Positions 2-45,367 of a stretch of 45,535 bases of DNA are shown piece after piece (within the stretch, counting starts at the first letter, position 1; every line of letters starts with the position of its first letter). The translations under genes and the position numbers were made by a program. Location: assembly GCA_902384455.1 (NCBI GenBank), contig CABMCB010000056.1, positions 1-45,535 on the forward strand. Direction: 5' to 3'. The notes below the pieces were generated by a model. It was not told the DNA's origin. It made no database searches and saw nothing but the letters and a program-made list of their open reading frames with translations. The DNA comes from an uncultured archaeon. Lineage in GTDB: Archaea > Altiarchaeota > Altiarchaeia > IMC4 > SCGC-AAA252-I15.

Positions 2-658
2 ATGCGCGGTTCAATAATGAGCATTGAGGGGAACACAAGCGGGTATGAGAGTTATTACTCTGTGGATGTTAACGGGGATGATGCGCGTGACAGCGGAGCG
101 CAGGTGACTTTTCAGCTTGATGGCGTCGTAGCGGTAGAGTCATCCTTTTATAATCCTGGTTCGTTTCCCGCTTCGCTTAATCTTACGATGCCTAGTATGC
201 GCGGCGATGTAGTGATAAACGAGTTTTTTCCTGGCGTTAGCGGGTGGATTGAAGTTTATAATAATGGGACGTATGCAGTCAACCTTAAGGATTGGGTGCT
301 TGATGACGGTCCGGGCGGATTGTCGCCGTATACTATACCTTACTCTGCTCCGTTACCTTCACGTGGATTCGCATTTTTTTACGCGAACGAAACAAGCATA
401 GTGCTGCCTGATGCGGGAACTGTGAGGGTAGTCAACCCGAACGGAAACGAAACCGACAGAATTAACTACAACAGCACCGACCTTAATCCTTCATGGACCA
501 GTTTCCCGCCCGGCGTGTCTGCGGGCCGTTACCCTGATGGGAATTTTTCTTTTGTGGCTTTGTGGCCTACTCCGGGTGAGCGTAATAGTCTTGTTCCTCT
601 TGTTAGGTTGGGTCTTTTTTCTGGTTGGAATTTGTTTTCGGTTCCTTTGCAGTTTTAG
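2..658 (+). CDS. Lamin-tail-domain surface/secreted protein, C-terminal part (probably 5'-truncated by the window edge)
   Basis: VVINEF..WIEVYNNG..VNLKDWVLDD..GRYPDG..PTPGERN matches the lamin tail domain pattern; ends in a GWNLFSVP motif common in archaeal surface proteins. Confidence 0.75.
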   Translation: MRGSIMSIEGNTSGYESYYSVDVNGDDARDSGAQVTFQLDGVVAVESSFYNPGSFPASLNLTMPSMRGDVVINEFFPGVSGWIEVYNNGTYAVNLKDWVLDDGPGGLSPYTIPYSAPLPSRGFAFFYANETSIVLPDAGTVRVVNPNGNETDRINYNSTDLNPSWTSFPPGVSAGRYPDGNFSFVALWPTPGERNSLVPLVRLGLFSGWNLFSVPLQF

Positions 659-706
659 TTTGGGTTGTTTAAGGGTTTTTCTTTTCTGTTTCTTTAGTTG
701 TATCTT

Positions 707-1597
707 ATGGTGGATGTTGTTACTCGGACTGAGTTTTCGGGTGTGCCTCTTGTTGCTCGGGGTAAGGTTAGGGATATTTATGATTTGGGTGATAAGCTGC
801 TTCTGGTGGCGACAGATAGGTTAAGTGCGTTCGACGTGGTTTTACCTAATGGCATTCCGTATAAGGGTGCGGTGTTAAACCGGCTTAGTGAGTATTGGTT
901 TAAGCAGACGCAGAATATTGTTCCAAATCACCTCATAACTACCGACGTCAAAAAGTATCCTGCTGTGCTTCAGCCTTATGCGAGCATATTAAAGGATCGT
1001 AGTATGCTGGTGAAAAAGGCGAAGCCTCTTCCGGTGGAGTGCGTTGCACGCGGCTACTTGGCCGGAAGCGGTTGGAAGGAGTATCAGAAGTCGCAGTCTG
1101 TGTGTGGAAATAAGCTTCCCGTTGGCCTTAAGGAGTCTAGTAAGCTTCCGTCGCCTATTTTTACGCCGGCGACAAAAGCGGAGAGCGGTCATGACATCAA
1201 CATTTCTTTTGAGGAGACTGTCAAGATTTTGGGTAAGGATAGTGCGGAGAGGATACGCGATTTGACGCTTAAGATTTATTTGGCCGCTAGTGATTTTGCG
1301 GCTTCTAAGGGGATTATTATCGCAGATACTAAGTTTGAGTTTGGGGTTTTTGACGGCCGGATTATTCTTATTGACGAGGTTTTGACGCCTGATAGCAGCC
1401 GGTTTTGGCCTGCTGCTGGTTATGTTGCTGGTAGGTCTCAGAAGAGTTTTGATAAGCAGTTTGTGCGGGATTATCTTGAGACTTTGGTTTGGGATAAGAC
1501 TCCGCCGGGTCCGGTTCTTCCTGAAAACGTGGTTTTGGAGACGAGTCGGAAGTATTTGGAGGCTTATAGGGTGTTGACTGGTAAGTCGTTGGGTTAG
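707..1597 (+). CDS. purC: Phosphoribosylaminoimidazole-succinocarboxamide (SAICAR) synthase
   Basis: [46 protein letters not shown] and FDKQFVRD motifs; ATG at 707 preferred over TTG at 698. Confidence 0.97.
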
Positions 1598-1686
1598 CAG
1601 TCTGTGGTTTAAATCCATTTTTAAGACAATACTCTACTATACTTAACCCTACTGTTTGTTCTGTAGGCCGGGGGTGGGGGTTTGAT

Positions 1687-3192
1687 TTGAAAGCGGTTGT
1701 GTTAGCCGGAGGGTACGGCACCAGGCTCAGGCCTCTCACTTTTAGTGTTCCTAAGCCGATGATTCCCCTTGTGGATCGGCCTATGTTGGAGCATATCATT
1801 AATTATTTGGGTGCTTTTGGTGTTGATGAGGTTATTATCACCACCAATTACCGTAGGGATGCGATTATCAATTATTTTGGTGATGGTGGTAGGTGGGGCG
1901 TTAAGCTTAGTTATCCTGAGGAGTCGTTGCCTTTGGGTACTGCGGGTTCTGTTAAGAATGTTGCGGGGAGTTTGGATGACACTTTTTTGGTTATTCAGGG
2001 GGACAATATCACTAATATCGACTTCAACAGCGTTCTTTCTGTTCACCGTAGGAATGGGGCGTTGGCGACTATTGCGGCTTACCCGGTTTCTGACCCCTGG
2101 AATTATGGTGTTTTGGAGTTGGATGGGGATCGTGTCGTCAGGTTTCATGAGAAGCCGCTTGTTGACGAGTGCTTTAACAACCTGATTAACAGCGGGCTTT
2201 ATGTTGTTGAGCCTGAGGCTCTTTCGTTGGTGCCTGACAGGACTTTCTTTGATTTCAGCAAAAACCTTTTTCCGCTGCTTCAGCAGCAGGGGGCTTTGTA
2301 TGCAGCTAAGTGCGACGGTTTCTGGGTGGATACTGGTCAGCCTGATGGGTATCTTACGGCCAAGAACTGGGTGCTTTCAAATAAAACTCCTTTCATTTCG
2401 TCGACTGCGGCAGTTGACGGAGCTTACGATGGAACAATCTACATCGGCGATGATACTGTTATTGAGCCGGGCGTTACTCTTACGGGTCCGTTGTACATCG
2501 GCGACGGCGTAACAATAAAGAAGGATGCTGTGCTTGGCAGCGGAACTGTCGTAGGCAACGGCGTCTTAGTCGGAGCGGGTTCGCACCTTGAGGGGGCGGT
2601 GCTGTTCGAAAACACCCGTGTGGGCGAAGAAGCATTGTTCTCTGAGGCCATATTAAGTCAGAACTGCAGTATGAGTTCGCAAATTGTGATTAGGGACGGT
2701 GCTGTTATCGGAAACAACTGTGATTTCGGTTCTTGCGTTTCTGTTACTGAGGGGTCGCGTGTTTGGCCTTACATTCAGGTCGCTTCTAACAGTCTTATTT
2801 CCGGGACTTTGCGTCGGTTTGTTGCCGGCGAAATTCCTAGTGGTGATTCGCCTCATATTTTGAGGAGTCTTTCGGCTGATGAGGCTTTTTACTTCAACAT
2901 GGATAAGGGCCGCCATATTCTTTATACTGGTTATCGTGCTGAGTCTCTTAGGGATTTCCATTCTATTTTGGCTAAGGTTGACGGTGATAGTATTCGGTAT
3001 CATTTGCGTGGTAATGTCAACGACTTTAAGGAGTGGGCTTCTTCTGTTTTGGGCGATAGGTTGTTGGCTCATCAGTTTGATCATGCTAAGAGTGAGGCTG
3101 GTGATCGTGTGGATGAGGAGGCTCGGAATGTTCTTTCCGATGTTACTCGCAGGCGGATAAACGAGCTTTTGAAACTTTCTCGGCGGCAGTAG
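1687..3192 (+). CDS. NDP-sugar pyrophosphorylase (mannose-1-phosphate guanylyltransferase-like) with hexapeptide beta-helix and C-terminal DUF5752-like domain
   Basis: LAGGYGTRLRPLT..PKPM, LGTAGSV and EKP motifs; hexapeptide repeats; tail EAFYF..YTGYRAESL..SIRYHL..NDFKEW..VLGD; TTG start after a G-rich SD-like stretch. Confidence 0.88.
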   Translation: MKAVVLAGGYGTRLRPLTFSVPKPMIPLVDRPMLEHIINYLGAFGVDEVIITTNYRRDAIINYFGDGGRWGVKLSYPEESLPLGTAGSVKNVAGSLDDTFLVIQGDNITNIDFNSVLSVHRRNGALATIAAYPVSDPWNYGVLELDGDRVVRFHEKPLVDECFNNLINSGLYVVEPEALSLVPDRTFFDFSKNLFPLLQQQGALYAAKCDGFWVDTGQPDGYLTAKNWVLSNKTPFISSTAAVDGAYDGTIYIGDDTVIEPGVTLTGPLYIGDGVTIKKDAVLGSGTVVGNGVLVGAGSHLEGAVLFENTRVGEEALFSEAILSQNCSMSSQIVIRDGAVIGNNCDFGSCVSVTEGSRVWPYIQVASNSLISGTLRRFVAGEIPSGDSPHILRSLSADEAFYFNMDKGRHILYTGYRAESLRDFHSILAKVDGDSIRYHLRGNVNDFKEWASSVLGDRLLAHQFDHAKSEAGDRVDEEARNVLSDVTRRRINELLKLSRRQ

Positions 3193-3228
3193 TTTTTCTC
3201 GTTTGGAAACAGATAACTAAGTTGATTT

Positions 3229-4290
3229 GTGAAAGACTGTGGTTCGTGTGTTGAATCGGGCGGTTGCGACGCGGTTATTGTCCGGTACGGCGAAATTTTC
3301 CTTAAGAGCGAGCCGGTTAGGTATCGTCTTACCCGCACGTTGCTTACGAACATGCGAAGCGCCTTCAGGGCGGCTGGCGTAAAGTTTAATTTCTCGGTGA
3401 CCCGCCACAGGATAATAGTGAAAACACTTCAGGCGGAAGATGCGGCATCCGCGTTATCTAAGGTTTTTGGCGTGGTAAGCGTAAGTCCAGCGTTAACCCT
3501 TCCTGCGGATTCGTCGTCTTGGGGTCCTTTAGCTGCAGAATTCGCAAAGAGCTCAATGAAACCTAACTTCTCTTTTGCCGTTCGAGCCCACCGCCTGCAC
3601 AAAAAGGGACCTAACACGCCCCAGATTGAGCGGACGGTGGGGTCGGCCATTCAGGTGGCTACTGGTGCGAGGGTGAATCTTACCGCGCCGGACGTTGTTT
3701 TTTATTTGGAGGTTTATTCTGATGCGGCGTATCTTTTCACTGAAAAAAGGGGCGGGGTCGGTGGTCTTCCTTATGGTACTCAGGGGAAGGTTGCGTGTCT
3801 TCTTTCTGACTCGGATGACGTTTTGGCTGCGTGGGCTCTTATGCGTCGGGGTTGTGTGGTCTGTTTTGTTCATCCCGGATCTTGGGAGTCTGCGGAGCAG
3901 TTGCTTGGTCTGATTTTGCCGTGGTTTCCGTCTAAGCCTCAGGTTTATGTTTTTTCGGGTGAAATTCCTGCTGAAGCGGGCGTGGACTGGCTTTCTGGCG
4001 AGCAGTTTAAGGCGGGTTTGCTTTCTGGTTTGGCGCGCCGTCGCAAGATTTCTGCTGTTGCGGCTGGTTATGGATTGCGGCATCTTACTTACTTACCTGT
4101 GATTCGAGGCGGGATTCAGTCGCCTGTTCTTACGCCTCTTTTGGGTGCTGATGAAGAGACGTTACGGCGTTGGAGCGCTTACTTGGGGTTTTCGGGCGGG
4201 CAGTGCAAGAGCGCGCCTTTAACGCCTCAGCACGGAGTTAAAGAGCCGTTTGACGCCGCACATTTAGCCGATTTATTAACGCTCGCGTAA
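3229..4290 (+). CDS. ThiI-like THUMP-domain protein with degenerate PP-loop
   Basis: VRYGEIFLKS, VFGVVSVSP, THUMP domain (VNLTAPD) and GGLPYGTQGK are ThiI hallmarks, but SGGxDS is replaced by SDSDD. Confidence 0.8.
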   Translation: MKDCGSCVESGGCDAVIVRYGEIFLKSEPVRYRLTRTLLTNMRSAFRAAGVKFNFSVTRHRIIVKTLQAEDAASALSKVFGVVSVSPALTLPADSSSWGPLAAEFAKSSMKPNFSFAVRAHRLHKKGPNTPQIERTVGSAIQVATGARVNLTAPDVVFYLEVYSDAAYLFTEKRGGVGGLPYGTQGKVACLLSDSDDVLAAWALMRRGCVVCFVHPGSWESAEQLLGLILPWFPSKPQVYVFSGEIPAEAGVDWLSGEQFKAGLLSGLARRRKISAVAAGYGLRHLTYLPVIRGGIQSPVLTPLLGADEETLRRWSAYLGFSGGQCKSAPLTPQHGVKEPFDAAHLADLLTLA

Positions 4291-4300
4291 GTTACTAAGG

Positions 4301-5800
4301 ATGGAAGAAGTTCTGGACAGCTACGGTAGAGTAAAAATATTGTCCCGCGGCAAGGCAGATTTCCCTAAATACGTTGTTTCTCTCCCTGAGTTCACTGACG
4401 TAGAACAGAAGATTATAGCAGACAGCAGGTCGCTAATCAAAGACATCCGCCCCATAACCGAATCGTTAAAGAGCATCCGCACCAACGAACAGAAAGAGGA
4501 GTACCTGAAAGACTATATCCGCGAGCGCCTAAAGGAAAAGAGGTCAAAAATCACCAACCTAGAGGAACTCGTAACCACCATAGTAGACAACACATTCATG
4601 GGCTACGGCCGCATTTCTCCTTTGATGCATGATGACCAGCTTGAGGAGATTATGATTAACAGCATTAATCAGCCTGTGTATGTTGTTCATCGTAAGGCTG
4701 GTATGTGTGAGTCTAATATTGTTTTTGAGGATTCTGCGTCTATTGATGAGCTTATTGGCTGGTTGGCTAAGCATGCGGGGCGTGATGTTAGCGATAAGAT
4801 GCCTCTTTTGGATGCGCATATGCCTGATGGTAGCCGGGCGAATGTTGCGGTGCCGCCTGCGGCGCCTAATGGTCCGGCTATTACTATCCGGAAGTTCAAG
4901 AACATTCCTTTTAACATAATCGATTTGATTCACCTTAAGACGGTGAACCCGGAGGTTGCCGCTTTTATGTGGCTTTGTGTTGAGGGTTTTGGGATTAATC
5001 CGGTGAACATGATTATTTCAGGTGGTGCTGGTTCCGGTAAGACCACTTTGTTGAATGCGTTGGCTATGTTCATTCCTCAGACTGAGCGGGTGGTCACAGT
5101 CGAGGATACGCTTGAGTTGAATTTCCAGTTCCTCAGGAATATTGTGCCTCTTGAGGCGACTCCCAGCGTCGTTACGGCGGACAATACGCTGTCGATGCAT
5201 TCTCTTTTGAAGAACAGTCTGCGTATGCGTCCTGACCGCGTCATAGTCGGGGAGGTCCGCGGCGAAGAAGCTGAGACGCTTCTTGTGGCGATGGACATTG
5301 GATTGCTGGGGAGTATGGGCACTATCCACGCTAACAACGCCCGTGAGACTACAATACGCCTTATGGAGGAGCCGATGAACGTTCCCATACGGATGATTCC
5401 ATTGATAGACATCATAATCGTCTTAAACCGGATTTACGACCGGCGAATGGGCATGATACGGCGTGTGACGCAGGTCGCTGAAATCGGCGGCATAGAAGGG
5501 GAAGTAGTCCAGATGGGAGACGTATACTCCTGGGACATAAACACGGACGCCATACGTCGCACAGAGTTCCCCATAATACTGCTTGAGAAGATTGCGCGGG
5601 CGGTGGGTATGACCAAGAAGCGGATTCAGACCGAGCTTATAATCCGCCAGAGAATCCTCGAGTACATGGTGGCCACAAAGGTGGAGAAAAACGCCGACGT
5701 ATTGCGGTTCTTCCAGAGCTACCACAATGATCCGAGACTTGTCATAGACGAAATACGCTCCAAAAACCACCCGATTGAGCAGCCTGAACTAACGCAATAA
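4301..5800 (+). CDS. Type II/IV secretion or pilus assembly ATPase (CpaF/TadA/VirB11/FlaI family)
   Basis: Walker A GGAGSGKTT, TVEDTLEL, LRMRPDRVIVGEVRG, GTIHAN, ITIRKF. Confidence 0.93.
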   Translation: MEEVLDSYGRVKILSRGKADFPKYVVSLPEFTDVEQKIIADSRSLIKDIRPITESLKSIRTNEQKEEYLKDYIRERLKEKRSKITNLEELVTTIVDNTFMGYGRISPLMHDDQLEEIMINSINQPVYVVHRKAGMCESNIVFEDSASIDELIGWLAKHAGRDVSDKMPLLDAHMPDGSRANVAVPPAAPNGPAITIRKFKNIPFNIIDLIHLKTVNPEVAAFMWLCVEGFGINPVNMIISGGAGSGKTTLLNALAMFIPQTERVVTVEDTLELNFQFLRNIVPLEATPSVVTADNTLSMHSLLKNSLRMRPDRVIVGEVRGEEAETLLVAMDIGLLGSMGTIHANNARETTIRLMEEPMNVPIRMIPLIDIIIVLNRIYDRRMGMIRRVTQVAEIGGIEGEVVQMGDVYSWDINTDAIRRTEFPIILLEKIARAVGMTKKRIQTELIIRQRILEYMVATKVEKNADVLRFFQSYHNDPRLVIDEIRSKNHPIEQPELTQ

Positions 5801-5820
5801 AAGCGGGGGGCAAAATCAAA

Positions 5821-7764: not shown

Positions 7765-7765
7765 G

Positions 7766-8308: not shown

Positions 8309-8310
8309 CG

Positions 8311-37397: not shown

Positions 37398-38396
37398 ATG
37401 GCCTCCACGCAATTCCAGCAAATCCGGGACAAACTATTGAAGACAGTAGAATCAGCAGTAGCCCAAAGCATAGCCTCGGAAGAAGTGCCTCCGCTTAAAC
37501 AATTTAAGCCTGAAAGACCCGAAGAAGAAAGACTCCCCGCAAGAGAACAATACAAACCGACAACACCCGTAGCAACAGTAAACGAACCAGTCGCAGAAAA
37601 AACAGGCAGCATACTCTCACTACAAGAAGACGCCGAAAGAATAATCGCCTCACTAGCAACAAGCCCCCCACAACAAAGAAAACTACTGCTATCACAACTA
37701 AAAGAACTGCAGATAGAAGCATCAGCAATAGGACAACAATTCTGGGCCGACAAAGACCTAGCGGCAGACCGCCTGACACCCGAAATAGGTCAGGACACAG
37801 TAATACGAAACCCCTCCTTAGCAGGAAGCCTGCTGAAGGTAATCGGCCGGCCTGACATCGCCCAACGGATGGGCTTCGCGACAGAACCATACGCAGCAGA
37901 CATCACAACCGTTACACGCTACGCAAACCCCACAGACGTACCCGAACTAGAAACGTTCTACACTGGCACCCAAGAAACGTTAGAACGACTAGAGCAACTA
38001 GACCCAGAAACAGCAAGGCAAACTCCTGAAGCCCAGAGAAAAAACCTCTTACTACTGGCCGCCGCAATAGTGAACGCCGCAGAAAACCCCCGCCTGCCAA
38101 ACGCTACCGAACACCCCATAGCAGAAGGCGCACAGGAATACCGCCGCTTCCTAAGCAACCTCGACGACACCCAAAAAGACACACGCTTCGCAAGAGCAGG
38201 CGTCGACGACCCAAACACAATAGCAATGGCCGCTCTCTACATAACAGACCACACATCCCCAGACCGCATAACAAGCGACCCACCCGCAAGAATAAACGAC
38301 GCATTCAAAGACCCGCAAAAACTCCTGGAAGCAGCCGTACTACTATCTTTAATCCGAGAAAACCCCGCCGAAGAAACAAGGCAGTTGGCGGCGTAA
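37398..38396 (+). CDS. Hypothetical protein (orphan-like, predicted helical)
   Basis: 332-aa ORF filling the gap between malic enzyme and carS; TATTTATT upstream; no motif recognised. Confidence 0.7.
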   Translation: MASTQFQQIRDKLLKTVESAVAQSIASEEVPPLKQFKPERPEEERLPAREQYKPTTPVATVNEPVAEKTGSILSLQEDAERIIASLATSPPQQRKLLLSQLKELQIEASAIGQQFWADKDLAADRLTPEIGQDTVIRNPSLAGSLLKVIGRPDIAQRMGFATEPYAADITTVTRYANPTDVPELETFYTGTQETLERLEQLDPETARQTPEAQRKNLLLLAAAIVNAAENPRLPNATEHPIAEGAQEYRRFLSNLDDTQKDTRFARAGVDDPNTIAMAALYITDHTSPDRITSDPPARINDAFKDPQKLLEAAVLLSLIRENPAEETRQLAA

Positions 38397-38430
38397 AAAC
38401 CCTTTTAACGAACCACCCCCATTAAATACC

Positions 38431-38994
38431 ATGCTGGCCGACCTCCTCATAGAGGCCCTCTGGTTCATACTACCCGCCTACATAGCCAACTCAACCGCAC
38501 CCGACGTAGCCGCACTAACGCGATTCAGAGGAAAAACGCACCCGATAGACGGAGAAAAGAAATTCCGCGGCCAACGGGTGTTCGGAGAAGGGAAGAGCTG
38601 GGAAGGATTAATCGGCGGAGTGTTGGCTGGAACGATCGTTGGAGCAATACAGATGGTCGTCCGACCGCAAGCTCAGGCGATTTTCACATCAAACGTGTCG
38701 CCTGCGATAAATCTGCCCACACACTCCATTGAACTCGCCTTTCTTCTGGCTTTCGGAGCCCTCGCAGGAGACATAGTAGGAAGCTTCCTTAAGCGCCGCG
38801 TGGGAATGCCGCGCGGAAGCCCCGCCCCACTTTTAGACCAACTCGACTTCGTCTACGGCGCAGTCATACTAAGCTGGCTGGTTTCGCCGATAAGACTCGA
38901 CTACTTCGGAATACTCGCATTCATAACCCTGCCCATACACCTCATAAGCAACATAATCGCCTGGAGAATCAAAATCAAAAAAGAACCCTGGTGA
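38431..38994 (+). CDS. carS: CDP-archaeol synthase
   Basis: PAYIAN, PID, FGEGKSWEG, GDIVGSFLKRR.G..RG..PLLDQLDF, C-terminal K.EPW. Confidence 0.93.
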   Translation: MLADLLIEALWFILPAYIANSTAPDVAALTRFRGKTHPIDGEKKFRGQRVFGEGKSWEGLIGGVLAGTIVGAIQMVVRPQAQAIFTSNVSPAINLPTHSIELAFLLAFGALAGDIVGSFLKRRVGMPRGSPAPLLDQLDFVYGAVILSWLVSPIRLDYFGILAFITLPIHLISNIIAWRIKIKKEPW

Positions 38995-39034
38995 AGGGTC
39001 AATATATTTCTCTAAAACTTACGTATACTACCTG

Positions 39035-40849
39035 ATGCATACTCAGCGAACAGGAGAAGGCGGAGTTCCATTACCACCGCCCTCCCCGTGGGTCGGCATT
39101 CCAGCCATACCCGAAGACGAAAGAGACGCCCTCAAGACGCCCTCGGCCGCATTAGCCTTCATTTCAGACGGAATAAAAGACCTTAACCCGCGGAGATTCC
39201 TCATAAGAGAAAAACCCTTTATACTCGGGCCCGGAGAACCCCGCGAACCTACTGTCCGAAGAGGCTACTCGCAGGCCGTGAAGGACTTAGACACAACCCT
39301 ACAACCCACACTAAACCTCGCAAACTTCATTGAACTAGAAGTTTCAAAGCCGATAGCTCAACTGCTAAACGGCGGAGTCCCACTTGAACTGCACCGAGGA
39401 AGCCCAGACGACTGCATGGCATCACTAAGCCAAAGAGGCTACACCAGATTTTACGCCGTAAAAACGCCCATAGGACCCCCACTATTCCTCGCGGCCTCAC
39501 GCGATAAATACGTCTTCGCCATGGCCGGCCTGTTCGGAGACGACGTTGTTTTGCACTATGAAGCTCTTGCGAAGTACCTACAGGTTAGGCCTACTGATTT
39601 GGATGTGTTTGATTACGGAAGAGACTATCGCGCTTTGGTGGAGGGAAGTCTTGAGCGCCATTCAGTGGAACCTGACGCTTTCATAATCGGCGGCTGGACC
39701 GGAGGAAAGATACTGGAGGTCAGAGAACAGTTAAGAAGGACTTTTTCTCAAATAACAGACCACTGGAAGACGTTTGTGCATGAAGGCGAAGAGGATATGC
39801 CGCTAAATCGGGTCATATTAAGGCGCCTAAGAGAGCCGTTAGACGGCCCTCCCGGAGAAACCAAGAAGGACCGCAATGTCCGAGGCCATTATGGTGACGT
39901 GTATGATGAATTACATGATTTTCTTGCCTCTCAAGAGACCGATAGGTTGTTCACCACGCCGGTAGGTGATATCATCAAAGATGGGCGCCTTTGCCAGAGG
40001 GCATACGATTTGTGGGAAAAGCTGAAGGGCCTGGGGAACCATAACACTAATGTTCCTGAGTTGCCTCAAGTGCGAGAAATAAAACATCCTGGCGGCTCCA
40101 AGATGTCTGTAAGAGCGCTGCCTTTGGATTCGACTAAAGTACTTGAGACTCTCACCGCAAATCCTCTCTCCATCGGCGTTCTCAAATACCGTGATTCACA
40201 CGGGGACGTTAGGACTCTGGCCGTATCGTCTTACCCCTATGGAGACATGTCCAGATACGTCACTGACGCCATTATCCCCCTGCACAGCCTCAAAACCCTT
40301 CTTTTTGTGGGAACAGCAGGCTCTATCCTAGGCGGAGACGATCCGCGGGACAAAATTCTTGTTGGAGACATTGGCGTGCCCATGAACGTTTTTTCCGACA
40401 CAGGCCGCCTTCTTAATCCTACTGTAGAAAACGGATTTCTGGAATACTTGGAGGGAGACATCAAGGCAGACGCGGGAATTTCAGAGCCCGCCGTCCTACC
40501 AAGGAGTGATTCCCGAAGAGAGAGGTTCATAGCCACGTCTCACGTTAACGTCGAGACGCCGTTCTTTGAGACGAAGCCCCACGTTGAAGCATGGAGAAGA
40601 GGGTATTTCGATTCAGTAGACGTGGAAGTCGGCGAAATATTCCAGGCCCTCGAATCCTCACGAGGAAGACGGCCTGCGTTTGGGGCGCTTTTGTACATGA
40701 GCGACGTCCTCGGAGCGCCAGGCTCCACGTTGGGGGAAGTTGAGAGAACAGCTTTAAGTCCCTCACGCTCAACTATCCTCGACGTCATCGTTCGGTACCT
40801 AGACGTCCAAGAAATACTGCCTTGGAATGAACCAATCACCCTCCAATGA
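39035..40849 (+). CDS. Large protein with a C-terminal purine/uridine nucleoside phosphorylase-like domain and unknown N-terminal region
   Basis: LLFVGTAGS..VGDIGVP..VETPFFET..SVDVEVG..LLYMSD appear in PNP_UDP-family motif order; first ~370 aa unrecognised. Confidence 0.6.
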   Translation: MHTQRTGEGGVPLPPPSPWVGIPAIPEDERDALKTPSAALAFISDGIKDLNPRRFLIREKPFILGPGEPREPTVRRGYSQAVKDLDTTLQPTLNLANFIELEVSKPIAQLLNGGVPLELHRGSPDDCMASLSQRGYTRFYAVKTPIGPPLFLAASRDKYVFAMAGLFGDDVVLHYEALAKYLQVRPTDLDVFDYGRDYRALVEGSLERHSVEPDAFIIGGWTGGKILEVREQLRRTFSQITDHWKTFVHEGEEDMPLNRVILRRLREPLDGPPGETKKDRNVRGHYGDVYDELHDFLASQETDRLFTTPVGDIIKDGRLCQRAYDLWEKLKGLGNHNTNVPELPQVREIKHPGGSKMSVRALPLDSTKVLETLTANPLSIGVLKYRDSHGDVRTLAVSSYPYGDMSRYVTDAIIPLHSLKTLLFVGTAGSILGGDDPRDKILVGDIGVPMNVFSDTGRLLNPTVENGFLEYLEGDIKADAGISEPAVLPRSDSRRERFIATSHVNVETPFFETKPHVEAWRRGYFDSVDVEVGEIFQALESSRGRRPAFGALLYMSDVLGAPGSTLGEVERTALSPSRSTILDVIVRYLDVQEILPWNEPITLQ

Positions 40850-40860
40850 ATAAACCAAAA

Positions 40861-41748
40861 TCACTCATATTTGACCCCTTTCCTCAGCGGAACCATGCTG
40901 TAATTTGGGACTACGCCCTTCCACAGCGCCTTCCGGCCGGCTTCTAAAAGAACATTCTGCATGCCCGCGTATTCAGCAGCCGACTTCACTCTGCCGGTAT
41001 CGTACACCCCCCTAAGTTTCTCGCGGTAACCTAGGTCCCTAAGAAGATGATGGTCCAATATCAGTTCACCACCAGTCTCATCAATAATACGTAGAATGTT
41101 CTTTCCAGCCTCAACAAAGTCGCCCAAACTAAACACATGACCTAAAAGATACGTCGGAGGCCCGTCCATCACTATGATGTCCGGCTTACATTCCAATACC
41201 CACTCCGTTGCTTCATCTGAAATAGGGCCTTGAACGTCCGAGCCGAAAACAAACCTTTTCTCGCCGTCGTCGATTAAACACATCAAAACAAAACCAAGCT
41301 TAGTTCCTTCCGGGCCGTGGGGAAAAGGAGGGGAAAAGTTTATGGTTAAACCGCCGAATTTGAATGTTTTACAGTCAGCAAAACGAAGTTCGCAAACCCC
41401 TTCAACTTGCTCCTTAAAATATTTTCCTCTCCCCCGTTGACTGAAGTTTATGCTGCTGGCTACGTCTTTGGCCAACACAGTCTTTCCTTTGTAGAATGTT
41501 TCATCAGGGTCATGATGGTCGTAATGGTAATGAGTTACCACAAGAACGTCGGAACCAAGCGCAACATCATGAATCCTATTTTTAGCCGCCTCAAGAGCAT
41601 TCAACTCCTGCCTCGCAGGAGGCAAGCCAAAACGTGAAGGCCCTAGTGCGGCGCTGGGGTCAATAAAAACCTTTTTGCCGTCCGCCTCAACGAGCGTGGC
41701 CATGCTGCGCACGCCCATACTTTCGAAGGCGATTGGGGTGACATTCAT
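40861..41748 (-). CDS. UPF0282 archaeal metallo-beta-lactamase-fold hydrolase
   Basis: ESMGVRSMA, IDPSAALGP.RFGLPP, THYHYDHH, IN.SQR.R, HG, SDVQGP, GPPTYL, DHHLLRD. Confidence 0.9.
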   Translation of the reverse strand: MNVTPIAFESMGVRSMATLVEADGKKVFIDPSAALGPSRFGLPPARQELNALEAAKNRIHDVALGSDVLVVTHYHYDHHDPDETFYKGKTVLAKDVASSINFSQRGRGKYFKEQVEGVCELRFADCKTFKFGGLTINFSPPFPHGPEGTKLGFVLMCLIDDGEKRFVFGSDVQGPISDEATEWVLECKPDIIVMDGPPTYLLGHVFSLGDFVEAGKNILRIIDETGGELILDHHLLRDLGYREKLRGVYDTGRVKSAAEYAGMQNVLLEAGRKALWKGVVPNYSMVPLRKGVKYE

Positions 41749-41767
41749 ATCTCCTTACGGGGGCATC

Positions 41768-42295
41768 TTACTTGATTCCCAGTTGTTGCCTTGCTATGCG
41801 TGCAGGATCGTATTTATCGTGTTCGGCGACGTACTCAAGAATCCCGGTTGCGCGCTCAAAAACGCCATCCTTACTTCCGGTGTGCGCCGACCGTATTAAG
41901 GCAACTGCTCCGGCAGCGTTAGCGCGCACTGTAGTCACATATTTACCCGTCTTTTCGGCATCCGACGCCCTAAGCGCCGTATCCAAGTAATCCAAAGCCG
42001 AGGGATTCCTGCTCCGCCCAAGGTTAGACGCGGCTGACTGCCTCACAGTAGTAGTATGACCTACGCCAGTAAGCCTTTCCCCTATGAGACGCACGCACTC
42101 ATCCGAAAACGCAGGATTATACGTGCCTCCAGCAGCGGAACCCAACATATCAAGGGCATGCCTTCTTGAAGAATCATTAGAACTTTCAAGAAGCTCCAAA
42201 GCATGCTCATAATCCCTTCTGTAGAACTCATCAATAACAACAGGCGCAGGCAAATTGACGGATTTTCCGCCACCCCCAGCTTCCGCAAGAACCAT
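41768..42295 (-). CDS. HEAT-repeat-like hypothetical protein
   Basis: RRHALDMLG, VRQSAASNLG and VRANAAGAVA repeats; ATG 42295 chosen. Confidence 0.65.
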   Translation of the reverse strand: MVLAEAGGGGKSVNLPAPVVIDEFYRRDYEHALELLESSNDSSRRHALDMLGSAAGGTYNPAFSDECVRLIGERLTGVGHTTTVRQSAASNLGRSRNPSALDYLDTALRASDAEKTGKYVTTVRANAAGAVALIRSAHTGSKDGVFERATGILEYVAEHDKYDPARIARQQLGIK

Positions 42296-42385
42296 AAAAT
42301 ACAAATACGCTATTCAAAAAGAAAAAAACAAAGAAACCGCCACAGAAGACGCCTGAATATATCCGCAGTTGCAGTATAATACCCC

Positions 42386-42931
42386 ATGGAAAAGGTTGTT
42401 TACAACGGCGAACCCCAAAGAAGCAACCTAATAGAACTAATAGCGCAAGTCTCACTCCAAACCATCGGAGCCTCACCCCAAACACAGCAAAAACGCGGAA
42501 GAGCATCATTTCTCATCAAAACAGACGGCTCAATCTCAGAAGTAGGCGGAGCAGAAACATTCGCAAAAGCAAACAAAGACGACGTTAAAGTTACTGTCTC
42601 AGAAAAAGGCGTTTGCTCGGCCAGAATTCCCGGCGAAAAAAAGGCGGCAACATACGAAGTCGAACTGGTTTCGCGCGAAGATAAACTAGAAGATGCCGTA
42701 CGCAGAATGGCATCTGCTGCGAAAGTTCTCATTGAAAACGGCGTAGACCCCGAAAAAACATGCAGAATTCTTCACGGAACAAAGAAAGACAATGCGACCG
42801 CTACCGAAGAACTATTCCTCCAAGACGGAGAACTCAAACCCCGCCCACACTTTCTAACGCGCATATTCAAACGCAGAAAACTAAGTAGGCCGACTTTAGG
42901 CGAAATTGCGAATCTCCCGAACATAGAGTAG
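42386..42931 (+). CDS. Hypothetical protein
   Basis: 181-aa ORF with AATATAT about 30 bp upstream; no motif recognised. Confidence 0.65.
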   Translation: MEKVVYNGEPQRSNLIELIAQVSLQTIGASPQTQQKRGRASFLIKTDGSISEVGGAETFAKANKDDVKVTVSEKGVCSARIPGEKKAATYEVELVSREDKLEDAVRRMASAAKVLIENGVDPEKTCRILHGTKKDNATATEELFLQDGELKPRPHFLTRIFKRRKLSRPTLGEIANLPNIE

Positions 42932-42969
42932 CCAACATAAAATACGACAAATACACTACCCTCTTTTGA

Positions 42970-43197
42970 CTAGAACCCTAGGTTTGCTCCCATCGCAAGA
43001 AGCGCATGAAGGAAAGCTAAAGCCAACGCTATTTTAGCAACATGCTTATGATGCTTGAAAGGAATCCAACGAATCCCTCGTGTATAGAAGTAGCCGATAG
43101 AAAAAGTCAGGCAAACCATCAAAAGCGTAGCAATCCCCCCCCAAACTATGACCGGCTGACCCAAAACCACTTTGTAAGCCAATTCTCCGACTACCAT
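42970..43197 (-). CDS. Small two-TM membrane protein with His residues
   Basis: PVIVWGG..IPFKHH.HVA..LAFLHA; ATG 43197 avoids overlap with the next gene. Confidence 0.65.
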   Translation of the reverse strand: MVVGELAYKVVLGQPVIVWGGIATLLMVCLTFSIGYFYTRGIRWIPFKHHKHVAKIALALAFLHALLAMGANLGF

Positions 43198-43275
43198 GAA
43201 AGACAAGTAGTAACGTAGCATTAAAAAAAAAAGGTTAAGCCGGTTTTTACCCTGAAAACGCCCGTAATTAACAAA

Positions 43276-43965
43276 ATGCAGGTTTACCGCCCGCCAGACG
43301 AACAGGAAGTGCAGCAAAACAGGGTTCTTTTGTGCCAGCGTTTCGCAGACGCGATAGCACAAAAACGACAGACTGAAACGGTAGGCCGTCCGCCTAAGTT
43401 GGTTGCCGATGAAATTAAAGCGGATGAAGGGCTTATTGCGGCGGTTGTCGCACACACTCCCGCCAACGTTCATTTTGATTTGATTGAGAAAGTGCTTGAT
43501 GCCTCAAGGTTTATCGCTGATTCAGACCGAGGAAGCACAAGGTTCATGTTTTACCACGGAGTAACCCGCTTGATCGAAGCAGCCGCCTCCCACAGAAATC
43601 CGGCAAAATACGTGGACTCAAACAGTCCTTGGGCTTCATGCCAGAGAGTGGCACTTGAAAGTGAAATGAAACATCCGTACGACGTCGGCATCCCCTCTTT
43701 AACAGAAGACGCTCAGAGGACTCTGCACGGAATGCTCCTGTCGGTCGCATTCATGGACCTAGACGAAACCCTCAAATCAGCCTTCAGCCCAGACCCAACG
43801 CAAGGATTCGACAGAAGATGGGACAAATTAACCCGACGCTGGATTCAAGAATCAAACACTATGCCAGGCAAACCATTCACTCTGCCATCGGAGACGCAGT
43901 TCAACAGGATACTCGCCGAAACCCGCCTACCCCGCACCCAAGCAGACCTACCGGACCTAAAATAA
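43276..43965 (+). CDS. Hypothetical protein, tandem paralog 1
   Basis: Shares ordered motifs with 44014..44838 (GRP..VADEIK, HFD..EK, PWAS..RV, RRW). Confidence 0.78.
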   Translation: MQVYRPPDEQEVQQNRVLLCQRFADAIAQKRQTETVGRPPKLVADEIKADEGLIAAVVAHTPANVHFDLIEKVLDASRFIADSDRGSTRFMFYHGVTRLIEAAASHRNPAKYVDSNSPWASCQRVALESEMKHPYDVGIPSLTEDAQRTLHGMLLSVAFMDLDETLKSAFSPDPTQGFDRRWDKLTRRWIQESNTMPGKPFTLPSETQFNRILAETRLPRTQADLPDLK

Positions 43966-44013
43966 AAACCAAACAACTACCCGTTTATTTCCACAAAATA
44001 CCCAAAATAAACC

Positions 44014-44838
44014 ATGAACACCGTCGTCGGAGGAGGCGGAGACCGCACTGAAGAGTCGATGGAAAGATGCCGAAGTTTAACGCAGTCAATAAAAACAATA
44101 AGACAAGACGAAATTTTCGGGCGGCCTGCCGAGGTTGTAGCTGATGAAATCAAATTGCACAGTAGACTTCTTAGGGCGGTAGTTCAAAACCTTCCGGTTG
44201 AAACGCACTTTGACATTATGGAGAAGACATTCGACGTTCTCAGGTTCATAGAAGACAGAGGCGGCACAAGCGGACGATACATGTTCCTCGACGGATTAAG
44301 CAGTGTCATAGAAAAAGCCGGACAGCAAGACGACTCATTAGGATACGTAAGAAGAAGCCGCCCTTGGGCGTCAACCAGACGGGTCACCGTAGAAATGGAA
44401 GGTCAGGAACCTTACGAATTCCCCCAAGCTCAAATACCCAAGCAAATAGAAAACACGCCTCAGAACGAACCCGGCAGACGCGCTTTCCATACTATGCTGC
44501 TTGACACCGCCGTCGGTGACGTACACGAAACCCTCCAGGAAGCATTCAGAACCAAAATGAGCCAAACACCCCCCAGCAGAAATTTAATACTAATGGCCCT
44601 AGCCACCAACACACCAGAAGATCCCGGAGGGATACCGCTAACCATCAAAGCACCTCCTGAAATACCATTCCAAAGCTTCGTTAGAAGATGGGGCGGACTA
44701 ATAGGCCAATGGACAGCCGCTTCCCAAACCACGCCTGAAGGAGACCTGCAGCCCCCCGAAAAACAGAAACTTACCGCAATTCTCTCCGACACCAAAGTCC
44801 CCCGGAAACCCGGCGGACTGCCCGAAGTAATGGTGTAA
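44014..44838 (+). CDS. Hypothetical protein, tandem paralog 2
   Basis: Colinear similarity to 43276..43965 with insertions; TTTATTT about 30 bp upstream. Confidence 0.78.
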   Translation: MNTVVGGGGDRTEESMERCRSLTQSIKTIRQDEIFGRPAEVVADEIKLHSRLLRAVVQNLPVETHFDIMEKTFDVLRFIEDRGGTSGRYMFLDGLSSVIEKAGQQDDSLGYVRRSRPWASTRRVTVEMEGQEPYEFPQAQIPKQIENTPQNEPGRRAFHTMLLDTAVGDVHETLQEAFRTKMSQTPPSRNLILMALATNTPEDPGGIPLTIKAPPEIPFQSFVRRWGGLIGQWTAASQTTPEGDLQPPEKQKLTAILSDTKVPRKPGGLPEVMV

Positions 44839-44851
44839 ACGAGAGTGTTTT

Positions 44852-45367
44852 ATGAATCAAAAAGACACAGACCCACCAGAATTAAGGCCTCTTGACAGGC
44901 GGCTTAGCGAATTGTTAGGCGGAGACTTCAGGCAGCAGACTGTAGACCAGATACTAGCTACAACCTCACGAGTATACCCTAGAGAAGACGTGTCCTACAG
45001 AGACTTGTTCTGGATTTACGAACACCTCTTAACTACGCAAGACTCTGAAAACACGCGCAAACAAGTCGCCGCCCAGCTGAACGAAAAACACACAAACCCA
45101 GAAACAAGAATCAAAACTGAAAGTACTGTCAGGCTCCTCTCAGAAGGAAACCCCGCGTACGAAGAGATATCAGTAACAAAAATCTATGTCCACCTGAACA
45201 AAGACCTGCAGGCTCTAGCCGCAATACAACGCCACCACTCAGACACAAGAGCCAGAAACGCAGCAGACGTTATGGGATATTCCCTTAGAGATGAGGGATT
45301 GGACATAGACCTCATCAGAAAAAACCTCGAGCAACAAAACACAAGGGGCCCAAAGAAAATCCATTAA
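44852..45367 (+). CDS. Hypothetical protein
   Basis: 171-aa ORF starting 13 bp after the previous stop; no motif recognised. Confidence 0.62.
   Translation: MNQKDTDPPELRPLDRRLSELLGGDFRQQTVDQILATTSRVYPREDVSYRDLFWIYEHLLTTQDSENTRKQVAAQLNEKHTNPETRIKTESTVRLLSEGNPAYEEISVTKIYVHLNKDLQALAAIQRHHSDTRARNAADVMGYSLRDEGLDIDLIRKNLEQQNTRGPKKIH

What the first reader, a model, noticed from the sequence alone, without database searches (positions are those of the whole stretch)
400..44950. Sawtooth amino/keto strand skew whose sharp A+C to G+T switches sit on GGCC sites
Seen: the + strand alternates between A+C-rich and G+T-rich tracts of a few hundred bp, inside single genes and independent of coding strand. 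AC-to-GT switches are abrupt and, read by eye, usually lie at or within tens of bp of GGCC: 524, 1666, 3645, 4607, 6422, 7046/7054/7082, 9265, 11735, 14389, 15486, 16464, 17633, 18672, 19231, 21810, 23257, 26342, 28461, 32251, 34161, 38569, 39523, 43384, 44123. GT-to-AC returns are gradual. Because GGCC is palindromic, each strand is G+T-rich 3' of the site. Established: C->T and A->G deamination of single-stranded DNA both convert amino to keto bases. Inference: a site-anchored process repeatedly leaves DNA 3' of GGCC single-stranded. Candidates are (a) sequence-specific Okazaki priming at GGCC, where the lagging template just 3' of a priming site waits longest, with forks passing in both directions; or (b) GGCC methylation- or nick-directed long-patch excision repair. 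I know of no description of such a footprint. Caveats: sites were picked by eye, GGCC is common, and some sites show no switch (e.g. 2358, 34366, 34612, 34873, 35583).
Basis: partly seen in the sequence, partly recalled or inferred. Interest (0 to 1): 0.9.

Follow-up and report, generated by a model that had tools for sequence, protein, structure and literature searches.

The report
Mutation footprint anchored at GGCC sites
In this archaeal genome each DNA strand is enriched in G and T for several hundred bases downstream of the four-letter word GGCC, a genome-wide mutational scar of a site-directed DNA process that I could not find described anywhere.

Summary
Among all 136 four-letter word classes, GGCC ranks first for an A+C to G+T step (z 30-37). 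The step is larger at fourfold-degenerate sites (-0.149 left, +0.083 right). Most of it disappears when synonymous codons are shuffled within genes. Blind change-point detection recovers GGCC de novo.

Each half-site acts alone. The strand reading 5'-GGCC followed by G or T gains G+T on its 3' side, and the gain falls almost linearly to baseline by about 700-800 nt. The effect does not depend on gene strand or on the sign of the surrounding skew domain. That argues against the Okazaki-priming reading.

Related genomes show the same footprint more weakly: at GGCC in four of them and at GATC in two of another family. E. coli K-12 shows none.

My best reading (about 0.35): a strand-specific incision at a restriction/methylation-type site, followed by 5'-to-3' strand replacement with G.T-type misincorporation. 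No enzyme was identified. GGCC does not explain most of the skew variance, and tRNA genes are also step points.

The parts
524..527 (.). GGCC (context GGGCCGT) at an abrupt A+C to G+T switch inside the gene 2..658
   Evidence: Step D150 = +0.68. Blind up-step at 535. Sequence read directly.
3645..3648 (.). GGCC (CGGCCAT) with an up-step
   Evidence: D150 = +0.43. Blind up-step at 3693.
4607..4610 (.). GGCC (CGGCCGC) with an up-step inside the T2SSE-type ATPase gene 4301..5800
   Evidence: D150 = +0.64. Blind up-step at 4598. 200-nt profile goes from -0.31 to +0.26.
6422..6425 (.). GGCC (AGGCCGC) with an up-step inside uvrB 5821..7764
   Evidence: D150 = +0.44. Gene identified by Pfam.
7046..7085 (.). 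Cluster of three GGCC (7046, 7054, 7082) with an up-step inside uvrB
   Evidence: D150 = +0.55 to +0.56. Blind up-step at 7057.
11735..11738 (.). GGCC (GGGCCAC) before a long G+T-rich tract (11800-12900)
   Evidence: D150 = +0.33. Blind up-step at 11819. Profile.
15486..15489 (.). GGCC (AGGCCGC) with an up-step inside uvrA 14394..17225
   Evidence: D150 = +0.47. Blind up-step at 15491.
16464..16467 (.). GGCC (AGGCCGC) with an up-step inside uvrA
   Evidence: D150 = +0.43. Blind up-step at 16515.
17633..17636 (.). GGCC (CGGCCCC) with an up-step inside uvrC 17261..19024
   Evidence: D150 = +0.41. Blind up-step at 17626.
19231..19234 (.). GGCC (AGGCCGA) with an up-step
   Evidence: D150 = +0.31.
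21810..21813 (.). GGCC (CGGCCGC) with an up-step
   Evidence: D150 = +0.33.
23257..23260 (.). GGCC (CGGCCAA) with an up-step
   Evidence: D150 = +0.39. Blind up-step at 23317.
26342..26345 (.). GGCC (CGGCCTT) with an up-step at the boundary of genes 25467..26357 and 26360..27724
   Evidence: D150 = +0.40. Blind up-step at 26320.
32251..32254 (.). GGCC (CGGCCGA) ending an extreme A+C-rich tract (31600-32250, keto skew -0.40 to -0.50)
   Evidence: D150 = +0.64. Blind up-step at 32247. Sequence read directly.
38569..38572 (.). GGCC (CGGCCAA) with an up-step
   Evidence: D150 = +0.35.
39523..39530 (.). Two overlapping-range GGCC (39523, 39527) with an up-step
   Evidence: D150 = +0.43. Blind up-step at 39508.
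44123..44126 (.). GGCC (CGGCCTG) with an up-step
   Evidence: D150 = +0.31.
1..13000 (+). Domain in which the + strand is net G+T-rich across genes on both strands
   Evidence: Profiles at 2-kb and 200-nt resolution. Gene strands.
31000..45535 (+). Domain in which the + strand is net A+C-rich across genes on both strands

Best explanation
A strand-specific event recurs at 5'-GGCC(G/T) half-sites and starts replacement DNA synthesis that runs 5' to 3' along the strand carrying the half-site, for up to about 700-800 nt. The replaced strand accumulates amino-to-keto transitions (A>G and C>T). That is what G.T/T.G mispairs made on the new strand would give. Repeated over evolutionary time this makes each strand G+T-rich downstream of the site, and the palindrome then yields an A+C | G+T step on the plus strand.

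The most likely trigger is a single-strand incision by a restriction/methylation-type enzyme, for example on transiently hemimethylated or unmethylated sites after replication, followed by nick translation or long-patch resynthesis.

SHOWN: the anchor word, the half-site logic, the direction, the length, the mutational nature, and the independence from gene strand and domain sign.

INFERRED: the nick, the resynthesis, the mispair chemistry and the restriction-modification link.
For: Specificity:
- GGCC ranks 1 of 136 4-mer classes (z 30-37).
- CGGCC and AGGCC are the top 5-mers (z 41.9 and 37.8). No 5- or 6-mer lacking GGCC or an overlap with it stands out.
- The other 15 palindromic 4-mers show nothing, even with the same flank test.

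Mutational origin:
- The fourfold-site step is about 2.5 times the all-site step.
- Per-gene fourfold skew has sd 0.33, against 0.11 at codon positions 1 and 2.
- The codon-shuffle control removes most of the step.

Strand-specific half-sites:
- The downstream gain appears only when the base after GGCC is G (+0.064) or T (+0.050), not A (-0.002) or C (-0.003).
- The left and right sides respond only to their own flank. This fits two independent single-strand events, not one double-strand cut.

Additive kernel:
- Upstream of a one-sided site the profile is flat. Downstream it rises by 0.07-0.09 in both negative and positive domains.
- Isolated half-sites (n=108) decline almost linearly to baseline at 700-800 nt.

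Chemistry:
- In extreme windows the fourfold A/G ratio goes from 0.85 to 0.21 and C/T from 1.28 to 0.32, both about 4-fold.
- Next to sites the factors are 0.73 and 0.68 (ratios worked out from the frequencies).

Direction of cause:
- GGCC is compositionally the reverse of what an AC|GT junction would create.
- Down-steps are depleted of GGCC (6 of 107 against 24.4% at random).
- Sites with two synonymous positions, which are lost fastest, have smaller steps (0.072 against 0.103-0.106).

Restriction-type anchor:
- The anchor is GGCC in G006 (z 9.2) and G011 (z 7.4). It is GATC in G024 (z 7.1) and G028 (z 6.1), each rank 1 of 136. Both words are 4-bp palindromes.
- Six co-binned small contigs (62.9 kb) hold 1 GGCC against 159 expected and 1 GATC against 240 expected. 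Mobile elements under GGCC and GATC restriction would look like this.
- GGCC methylation systems are listed for many archaea in the passages I read of PMC11033074.
Against: - No GGCC methyltransferase or nuclease was identified. PF00145 (C5 methyltransferase) was not found in G000, which is 91.9% complete. The HaeIII and NgoPII nuclease families were not found, but their control searches rang in no genome, so this says little.
- The PF01555 methyltransferases present have unknown specificity.
- G000 carries a complete DpnII cassette, yet its 840 GATC sites show no step. A restriction-modification system alone is therefore not sufficient.
- G024 shows the GATC step, but no DpnII was found there.
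- Presence of a C5 methyltransferase, a Y-family polymerase or MutH does not track the effect across relatives.
- The gain is weak in the first 6 nt after the half-site (+0.013, against +0.08 to +0.11 further on). A tract starting at a nick should be strongest there.
- A uniform GGCC kernel explains only 8.6% of the variance at 100 bp and 3% at 3 kb.
- On the skewed contigs 32 of 34 tRNA genes are up-steps, including 11 with no GGCC within 60 bp (mean +0.195). GGCC is not the only anchor.
- Nothing here measures nicks, methylation or substitutions directly.
Confidence: 0.35

Rival explanations
1. Single-strand exposure and deamination. The strand 3' of GGCC is repeatedly left single-stranded, for example because the opposite strand is nicked at the site and degraded 3' to 5'. 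The exposed strand then suffers C>U and A>hypoxanthine deamination before the gap is refilled.
For: The direction, strand specificity and length of the tract fit equally well. Both G-C and T-A skews step at the site.
Against: The fourfold A/G and C/T ratios shift by the same factor, about 4-fold in extreme windows and 0.73 against 0.68 beside sites. As I recall the chemistry, adenine deaminates much more slowly than cytosine, so C>T should dominate. This model also needs a 3'-to-5' gap of several hundred nt started at a specific site, for which I know no example.
Confidence: 0.2
2. A polymerase response to a modified template base, with no nick. The replicative polymerase pauses or is exchanged at N4-methylcytosine in GGCC (or N6-methyladenine in GATC). 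The next few hundred nucleotides of the nascent strand are then made with lower fidelity.
For: It explains the independence from fork direction and the equal effect on both strands, because every nascent strand runs 5' to 3' past the site. It also explains an anchor word that varies by lineage.
Against: In G000, GATC sits beside two methyltransferases of a DpnII cassette and shows no step. E. coli K-12, which I recall as Dam-methylated at GATC, shows none in 300 kb: rank 77 of 136, z -0.1. I know of no such polymerase switch.
Confidence: 0.15
3. Double-strand cutting at GGCC by a restriction enzyme (self-restriction), then 5'-to-3' resection of both ends and error-prone fill-in of the resected strands.
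For: It gives the right sign on both sides. It would also fit kilobase-scale cusps at some sites: the mean profile around 25 large up-steps decays over 4-8 kb, and 19 of the 25 have GGCC within 50 bp. The GGCC-free contigs point to GGCC restriction.
Against: The two sides of a site behave independently, each following only its own flanking base. One cut should affect both sides together.
Confidence: 0.1
4. Sequence-specific Okazaki priming at GGCC. The lagging-strand template just 3' of a priming site stays single-stranded longest. A variant is that low-fidelity primase-made DNA is retained at fragment starts.
For: There is a true sawtooth between consecutive sites, with amplitude growing with the gap. 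The abrupt-up, gradual-down shape holds at all scales.
Against: Upstream of a functional half-site the same strand is flat, not at a minimum. The effect has equal size on the domain-level G+T-rich and A+C-rich strands. The sawtooth is reproduced by adding independent one-sided kernels. The anchor switches between two 4-bp palindromes across related families, which is typical of restriction-modification recognition. The primase sites I recall are short and non-palindromic. The spacing of half-sites per strand (about 500 nt) and the tract length (about 700 nt) exceed the roughly 100-nt archaeal Okazaki fragments I recall.
Confidence: 0.07
5. No site-directed DNA process at all. The pattern comes from protein composition, codon choice, selection around GGCC-encoded peptides, or an assembly or sequencing artefact.
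For: About a third of the step survives at the original positions after the synonymous shuffle (0.033-0.034 of 0.096), so amino-acid composition carries part of it.
Against: The step is strongest at fourfold sites. It is present at 431 intergenic or boundary sites (+0.131) and in all three reading frames. It is absent from all one-letter variants and from the other palindromes. It extends for hundreds of nt. It is seen in six other genome assemblies. Open reading frames are intact with strong Pfam matches, so the letters are not sequencing damage.
Confidence: 0.02

Closest known systems
Replication-associated strand skew, and the sawtooth 'N-domains' of mammalian genomes (papers seen only as search listings and abstracts: PMC2764438, PMC3320577)
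   Same: The same two skews, T over A and G over C, move together. There are abrupt upward jumps and gradual declines. The sign at the jump matches DNA synthesis leaving the point in both directions.
   Different: The scale is hundreds of nt rather than about a megabase. The jumps are anchored on a 4-bp word at thousands of sites. Each strand's effect depends on one flanking base. The effect does not depend on the sign of the surrounding domain.
Methyl-directed mismatch repair of E. coli (Dam methylation and MutH nicking at GATC; recalled knowledge)
   Same: A 4-bp palindromic methylation site serves as the entry point for a strand-specific nick and long-patch excision and resynthesis. One related genus here anchors on GATC.
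   Different: 300 kb of E. coli K-12 shows no GATC step: rank 77 of 136, z -0.1. MutH was not found in 5 relatives. Only a weak MutS domain match occurs in G000. Here the tract runs in one direction only and is mutagenic.
Type II GGCC restriction-modification systems of archaea (such as SuaI/M.SuaI and M.PhoI; table and text passages of PMC11033074 read)
   Same: The same recognition word. Six small co-binned contigs avoid GGCC (1 against 159 expected), as expected under GGCC restriction. The chromosome keeps GGCC at 0.87 of expectation, so it would have to be protected.
   Different: None of my five literature searches listed a flanking compositional footprint for these systems. No cognate gene was identified here. 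The flanking-base rule (GGCC followed by G or T) is not part of the classical site.
Transcription-associated strand asymmetry
   Same: It is a strand-asymmetric excess of transitions.
   Different: Plus-strand fourfold skew of neighbouring genes correlates equally for same-strand (r 0.59), divergent (0.58) and convergent (0.48) pairs. The coding-strand term is small (mean -0.09).
Raised substitution rates at Okazaki-fragment junctions in yeast and human (recalled; not looked up here)
   Same: It is a local mutational footprint of error-prone synthesis retained near strand starts.
   Different: That footprint is positioned by bound proteins, not by a sequence word. As far as I recall it is not a keto/amino strand skew.

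Membership tests
Replication (leading/lagging) skew | The sign of the effect follows fork direction, so only the half-site on the lagging-strand template (or only one strand per domain) should be active | tested here: not met
   One-sided sites raise their own strand by +0.075 in A+C-rich domains and +0.09 in G+T-rich domains.
Replication (leading/lagging) skew | Polarity switches at an origin next to cdc6/orc1 | tested here: inconclusive
   Cdc6_C matches lie at C71:9888-10196 and on C33. The 2-kb profile of C71 shows only a modest rise there.
Okazaki priming-site model | Minimum exposure, so the lowest keto skew, on the same strand just 5' of each priming site | tested here: not met
   The upstream profile of one-sided sites is flat from -800 to -10 nt.
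Transcription-associated asymmetry | The skew sign follows the coding strand | tested here: not met
   Neighbour-gene correlation is the same for all orientations. The per-gene coding-frame fourfold skew is unimodal, with mean -0.09 and sd 0.33.
Type II restriction-modification at GGCC | A cognate GGCC methyltransferase is encoded | tested here: inconclusive
   No PF00145 match. Several PF01555 enzymes of unknown specificity. The genome is 91.9% complete.
Type II restriction-modification at GGCC | A GGCC endonuclease is encoded | tested here: inconclusive
   PF09556 and PF09521 were not found, but the control searches rang in no genome. Restriction enzymes are too diverse for this to count as absence.
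Type II restriction-modification at GGCC | Mobile elements of the host avoid the site | tested here: met
   Six contigs (62.9 kb) hold 1 GGCC against 159 expected, while CCGG is 127 against 159. That these contigs live in this host is inferred from co-binning only.
Type II restriction-modification at GGCC | GGCC is methylated in the chromosome | not testable with these tools
   No sequencing run was listed.
Methyl-directed mismatch repair (Dam/MutH type) | A MutH-type nicking enzyme and MutS/MutL | tested here: not met
   MutH was not found in G006, G011, G002, G024 or G028, while the control rang in E. coli. It was not searched in G000. G000 has one weak MutS_V match of 46 bits and a NucS.
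Methyl-directed mismatch repair (Dam/MutH type) | The model system leaves the same footprint | tested here: not met
   E. coli K-12, 300 kb, 1183 GATC sites: step -0.000, z -0.1.
DNA phosphorothioation (Dnd) at GGCC | dndC is present | tested here: not met
   TIGR03183 was not found in G000. That some Dnd systems modify GGCC is recalled, not looked up.

The most novel reading that the evidence does not exclude
An order of archaea has a post-replicative, site-directed strand-replacement system. It enters DNA at lineage-specific methylation or restriction words: GGCC(G/T) in this family, GATC in another. It rewrites several hundred nucleotides 3' of each site on either strand. In this genome it is a major source of point mutations. 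It pushes synonymous sites in the most extreme windows to about 80% keto or amino bases, visibly reshapes protein composition, and writes a readable map of its own entry points into the sequence.
Probability: 0.25. Interest if true: 0.92.

Novelty: categorically new. Interest (0 to 1): 0.88.

Why it matters
If the reading holds, plain genome sequence records where a DNA-processing enzyme enters the chromosome, which strand it works on, in which direction and how far.

That would give a sequence-only assay for a repair or restriction-linked process in uncultured archaea, whose strand-discrimination and mismatch-repair mechanisms are still open questions.

It would also show that a short recognition word can dominate local mutation spectra strongly enough to drive codon use and amino-acid composition within single genes. 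This matters for models of substitution, for codon-usage inference, for origin prediction from skew, and for gene finders. A single codon model missed the genes with a G+T-rich coding strand here.

The lineage-specific change of word (GGCC or GATC) offers a natural experiment for finding the responsible genes.

Tried and rejected
GENE CALLING. A single codon model missed genes whose coding strand is G+T-rich. I replaced it with a three-class model: 2341 genes, 87% coding. These are my own calls, not curated ones. The all-site results do not depend on them.

FIXED-DIRECTION REPLICATION READING. Rejected.

TRANSCRIPTION READING. Rejected.

FLANKING BASE AS MERE CONSEQUENCE OF THE SKEW. Rejected for two reasons. 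The other 15 palindromes show no step under the same flank test. And the downstream gain falls to zero, not merely lower, when the flank is A or C.

GGCC AS THE SOLE CAUSE OF ALL SKEW. Rejected. A uniform kernel gives R2 0.086 at 100 bp, 0.052 at 1 kb and 0.029 at 3 kb, against at most 0.017, 0.028 and 0.040 for six other palindromes.

GENE HUNTS THAT LED NOWHERE.
- PF00145, PF09556, PF09521 and TIGR03183 were not found in G000.
- The PF01555 methyltransferase on C57 has no match in G001, G006 or G011, and it sits on a GGCC-poor contig that is probably mobile.
- A C5 methyltransferase is present in G006 and G012 but was not found in G001, G011 or G002.
- A Y-family polymerase is present in G000, G002, G004, G013 and G024 but was not found in G006, G011 or G028.
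- MutH was not found in 5 relatives.
- A Dam-type methyltransferase plus DpnII occurs in G000 and G028, but DpnII was not found in G024.
None of these tracks the footprint.

ORGANISM NAME. The UvrB-based scan returned only bacterial relatives at 56-61% identity, so I have no lineage name. PolD DP2 and Cdc6 show an archaeon.

SEQUENCING RUNS. None was listed, so read ends, methylation and population variants could not be examined, and read laying was not used.

GGCC-FREE CONTIGS. For ten proteins from them, PHROGs gave one weak match, and Pfam gave two matches above the family cut-off (a CBM96 and an Rce1-like domain) plus two marginal ones. Their mobile nature is inferred from word avoidance and from the scarcity of known families.

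LITERATURE. Five searches listed no paper describing a strand skew anchored at a restriction or methylation word. I read only listings and abstracts, plus the GGCC passages of PMC11033074. Supplementary files were not consulted.

AN ERROR OF MINE. The row 'G024+G028' included the six E. coli loci by mistake and must be ignored. The separate rows for G024 and G028 are correct.

POWER. G005, G007 and G010 were sampled at only 28, 35 and 29 kb, so their negative results are weak.

Full report
WHAT THE WINDOW IS

The window is contig C56 of a 2.41-Mb assembly of 103 contigs, 91.9% complete. It encodes ordinary housekeeping genes: SAICAR synthetase, a sugar-nucleotidyl transferase, a secretion-type ATPase, bacterial-type UvrA/B/C, an M16 peptidase, anthranilate synthase, citrate synthase and malic enzyme. 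The organism is an archaeon. It has the PolD large subunit and Cdc6/Orc1. I could not name its lineage.

THE SKEW IS REAL, EXTREME AND MUTATIONAL

- In 200-nt windows the keto skew (G+T-A-C) reaches +0.56 and -0.50 within the window. The abrupt switches can be read directly in the sequence at 524 and 32251.
- Genome-wide, the sd of keto skew in 200-nt windows is 0.192. The binomial expectation is 0.071 and the sd of purine skew is 0.122.
- In 1387 genes of at least 600 nt, the fourfold-site keto skew per gene has sd 0.33 and spans the histogram bins from -1.0 to +0.8. Codon positions 1 and 2 have sd 0.11 and correlate with it at r 0.68 and 0.42. The pressure therefore acts on DNA and drags protein composition along.
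- Plus-strand fourfold skew of adjacent genes correlates equally for same-strand pairs (r 0.59, n=1226), divergent pairs (0.58, n=248) and convergent pairs (0.48, n=261). It is a property of position and strand, not of transcription direction.

GGCC IS THE ANCHOR

- In an unbiased scan of all 136 4-mer classes, GGCC ranks first at flank widths of 50, 150 and 400 nt (z 30.3, 37.0, 30.5). Only words overlapping it follow.
- One-letter variants give steps of at most 0.005 in size.
- No other 5- or 6-mer stands out.
- The meta-profile at fourfold sites steps from -0.149 to +0.083 and relaxes over 500-800 nt.
- Blind change-point detection found 390 up-steps and 229 down-steps. GGCC was the most enriched 4-mer within 25 nt of the up-steps: 192 of 390, against 15.4% of random windows and 5.7% of down-steps (z 18.5).
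- On the skewed contigs 165 of 239 sharp up-steps lie within 40 nt of a GGCC, including 119 of 153 intragenic ones. The figures are 6 of 107 for down-steps and 24.4% for random positions.
- The whole distribution shifts, not just a tail. 76.7% of 2592 [A/C]GGCC[G/T] sites have a positive step, against 45-48% of control sites.
- Shuffling synonymous codons within genes lowers the step from 0.096 (z 41.5) to 0.015-0.018 at the GGCC sites of the shuffled genome and to 0.033-0.034 at the original positions. It lowers the up/down counts from 239/107 to about 80/55 (four shuffles).

ANATOMY OF THE EFFECT

- The site works as two independent half-sites. The strand gains G+T downstream only if the base after GGCC is G or T: +0.064 and +0.050, against -0.002 for A and -0.003 for C. 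Each side follows only its own flank.
- The same flank test on the other 15 palindromic 4-mers gives nothing.
- For sites with only one permissive flank, the upstream profile is flat. The downstream profile rises by 0.07-0.09 in skewed domains, whether the strand is A+C-rich or G+T-rich at the domain level. In neutral domains the rise is only about 0.03.
- Between consecutive sites the profile is a true sawtooth whose amplitude grows with the gap. This is what adding such one-sided kernels gives.
- Isolated half-sites (n=108) fall almost linearly from +0.137 to baseline at 700-800 nt.
- The first 6 nt after the half-site show almost no gain (+0.013). The plateau of +0.08 to +0.11 starts at 7-12 nt.
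- At fourfold sites downstream, A falls from 0.202 to 0.159 and C from 0.265 to 0.227. G rises from 0.298 to 0.320 and T from 0.235 to 0.294. In the most extreme windows the frequencies are A 0.074, C 0.138, G 0.358 and T 0.430. The A/G and C/T ratios change by the same factor.
- Sites that synonymous change can destroy at two positions have smaller steps (0.072) than sites with one such position (0.103-0.106). Intergenic sites have the largest (0.131).

WHAT GGCC DOES NOT EXPLAIN

- A uniform additive kernel at all GGCC sites accounts for 8.6% of the variance at 100 bp and 3% at 3 kb.
- Skew is autocorrelated over kilobases: 0.5 at 1 kb and 0.1 at 10 kb.
- Upward jumps are sharper than downward ones at every scale up to 6 kb.
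- Of 25 large jumps (3-kb flanks), 19 have a GGCC within 50 nt. Their mean profile is a cusp that decays over 4-8 kb. Several sit at single tRNA genes.
- On the skewed contigs 32 of 34 tRNA genes are up-steps (mean +0.27), in both orientations. This includes 11 without GGCC within 60 nt (mean +0.195). I have no explanation for this beyond 'another kind of entry point'.

COMPARISON WITH OTHER DNA

Inside the assembly:
- 14 contigs (538 kb) show no skew and no GGCC step, and hold 7 GATC against 2090 expected. Three of them carry long tRNA arrays.
- Six small contigs (63 kb) hold 1 GGCC against 159 expected and 1 GATC against 240 expected.
- The remaining 1.81 Mb has GGCC at 0.87 of expectation and GATC at 0.12.
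- A complete DpnII cassette, made of a Dam-type methyltransferase, the endonuclease and a second methyltransferase, lies at C71:217709-220372. Yet the 840 GATC sites of G000 show no step.

Among 13 relatives sampled (28-500 kb each):
- GGCC ranks 1 of 136 in G006 (z 9.2, 153 kb), G011 (z 7.4, 292 kb), G001 (z 3.0, 83 kb) and G004 (z 2.9, 43 kb).
- GATC ranks 1 of 136 in G024 (z 7.1, 433 kb) and G028 (z 6.1, 271 kb). These two belong to the same genus of another family.
- Nothing comparable appears in G002 (500 kb), G012, G013, G026, G005, G007 or G010. The last three were sampled at under 35 kb.
- The flanking-base rule clearly recurs in G006 and only weakly in G011. It does not apply to GATC in G024.
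- 300 kb of E. coli K-12 shows no step at GATC, GGCC or CCAGG.

INTERPRETATION

The footprint marks points from which each strand is treated differently in its own 3' direction, independently on the two strands and whatever the gene or domain orientation.

- The independence from domain sign and the flat upstream profile argue against Okazaki priming and against fork-direction models.
- The independent halves argue against a double-strand cut.
- The palindromic 4-bp anchors that change between lineages, and the contigs that avoid GGCC, point to recognition of the restriction/methylation type.
- The equal shift of the A/G and C/T ratios is what one mispair class (G.T) made on a newly synthesised strand would give. 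It fits less well with deamination, where cytosine should dominate. This last step rests on recalled chemistry.

I therefore favour a strand-specific incision at GGCC(G/T) followed by 5'-to-3' strand replacement of up to about 700-800 nt. My confidence is only about 0.35, for four reasons. No enzyme was found. The DpnII/GATC pair in the same genome leaves no mark. The first few nucleotides after the site are spared. And tRNA genes behave as anchors too. The rivals are listed with their odds.

NOVELTY

Five full-text searches listed nothing like a strand skew anchored on a restriction or methylation word. The nearest known pattern in shape is the mammalian N-domain sawtooth, and the nearest known mechanism in logic is methyl-directed mismatch repair. 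Both differ in defining respects that I tested here.

Noticed in passing
G000 contigs C4, C38, C59 (tRNA arrays) and C1, C10, C25, C28, C34, C40, C61, C66, C68, C69, C100: Fourteen contigs (537,651 bp, GC 0.524) have no keto skew and no GGCC step, and hold 7 GATC against 2090 expected. C4, C38 and C59 carry arrays of roughly 20 to 40 tRNA genes each. They look like a different replicon or organism co-binned with the archaeon, perhaps a very large extrachromosomal element or virus.
   Followed up: partly
G000 contigs C26, C36, C42, C57, C83, C98: Six small contigs (62,898 bp, GC 0.448) hold 1 GGCC against 159 expected, 1 GATC against 240 and 50 CTAG against 240. Ten of their proteins gave almost no PHROGs or Pfam matches. 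C57 carries a PF01555 DNA methyltransferase. They are probably a virus or plasmid under GGCC and GATC restriction.
   Followed up: partly
G000:C6:1103-2424 (locus L146): The only small-subunit rRNA found is bacterial (RF00177, 1242 bits) on a 2.9-kb contig, with a group II intron fragment beside it. The genome itself has archaeal PolD and Cdc6, so this contig is probably mis-binned.
   Followed up: partly
G000:C71:217709-220372: A complete DpnII-type cassette: a Dam-type methyltransferase, the DpnII endonuclease and a PF01555 methyltransferase. It goes with an 8-fold depletion of GATC in the chromosome (835 against 7063 expected).
   Followed up: yes
G000:C94:32160-39712: A defence island: a DISARM DrmD-like SNF2 helicase (1071 aa), a 1069-aa protein with BREX PglX-like methyltransferase matches, and a PF01555 methyltransferase.
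   Followed up: partly
tRNA genes on the skewed contigs, e.g. G000:C71:93315-93388, C90:13331-13404, C32:29934-30008, C84:3260-3336: 32 of 34 single tRNA genes sit at A+C to G+T up-steps (mean +0.27 with 400-nt flanks), in both orientations. This includes 11 with no GGCC within 60 nt. Unexplained.
   Followed up: partly
window 5821-7764, 14394-17225, 17261-19024: A bacterial-type UvrB, UvrA and UvrC. UvrB is 56-61% identical to UvrB of Chloroflexota and other bacteria, which suggests acquisition from bacteria.
   Followed up: partly
window 9400-9520 (inside the M16 peptidase gene 8885..10102, minus strand): A run of about 100 nt that is almost pure G+T on the plus strand lies inside a conserved enzyme gene. 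It is a visible case of the mutational pressure reshaping a protein segment.
   Followed up: no
G000 genome-wide; G011: CTAG shows a small positive step: +0.012 to +0.015, z about 4, in G000, and z 3.2, rank 7, in G011. CTAG is about 3-fold depleted in the chromosome. It may be a minor second anchor.
   Followed up: no
relatives G012 and G002: In these genomes the top step words are A-rich (AAAA z 9.1 in G012; AAAA z 6.0 and TAAA z 5.6 in G002). This is probably an effect of intergenic regions and gene orientation, not a site-anchored one.
   Followed up: no
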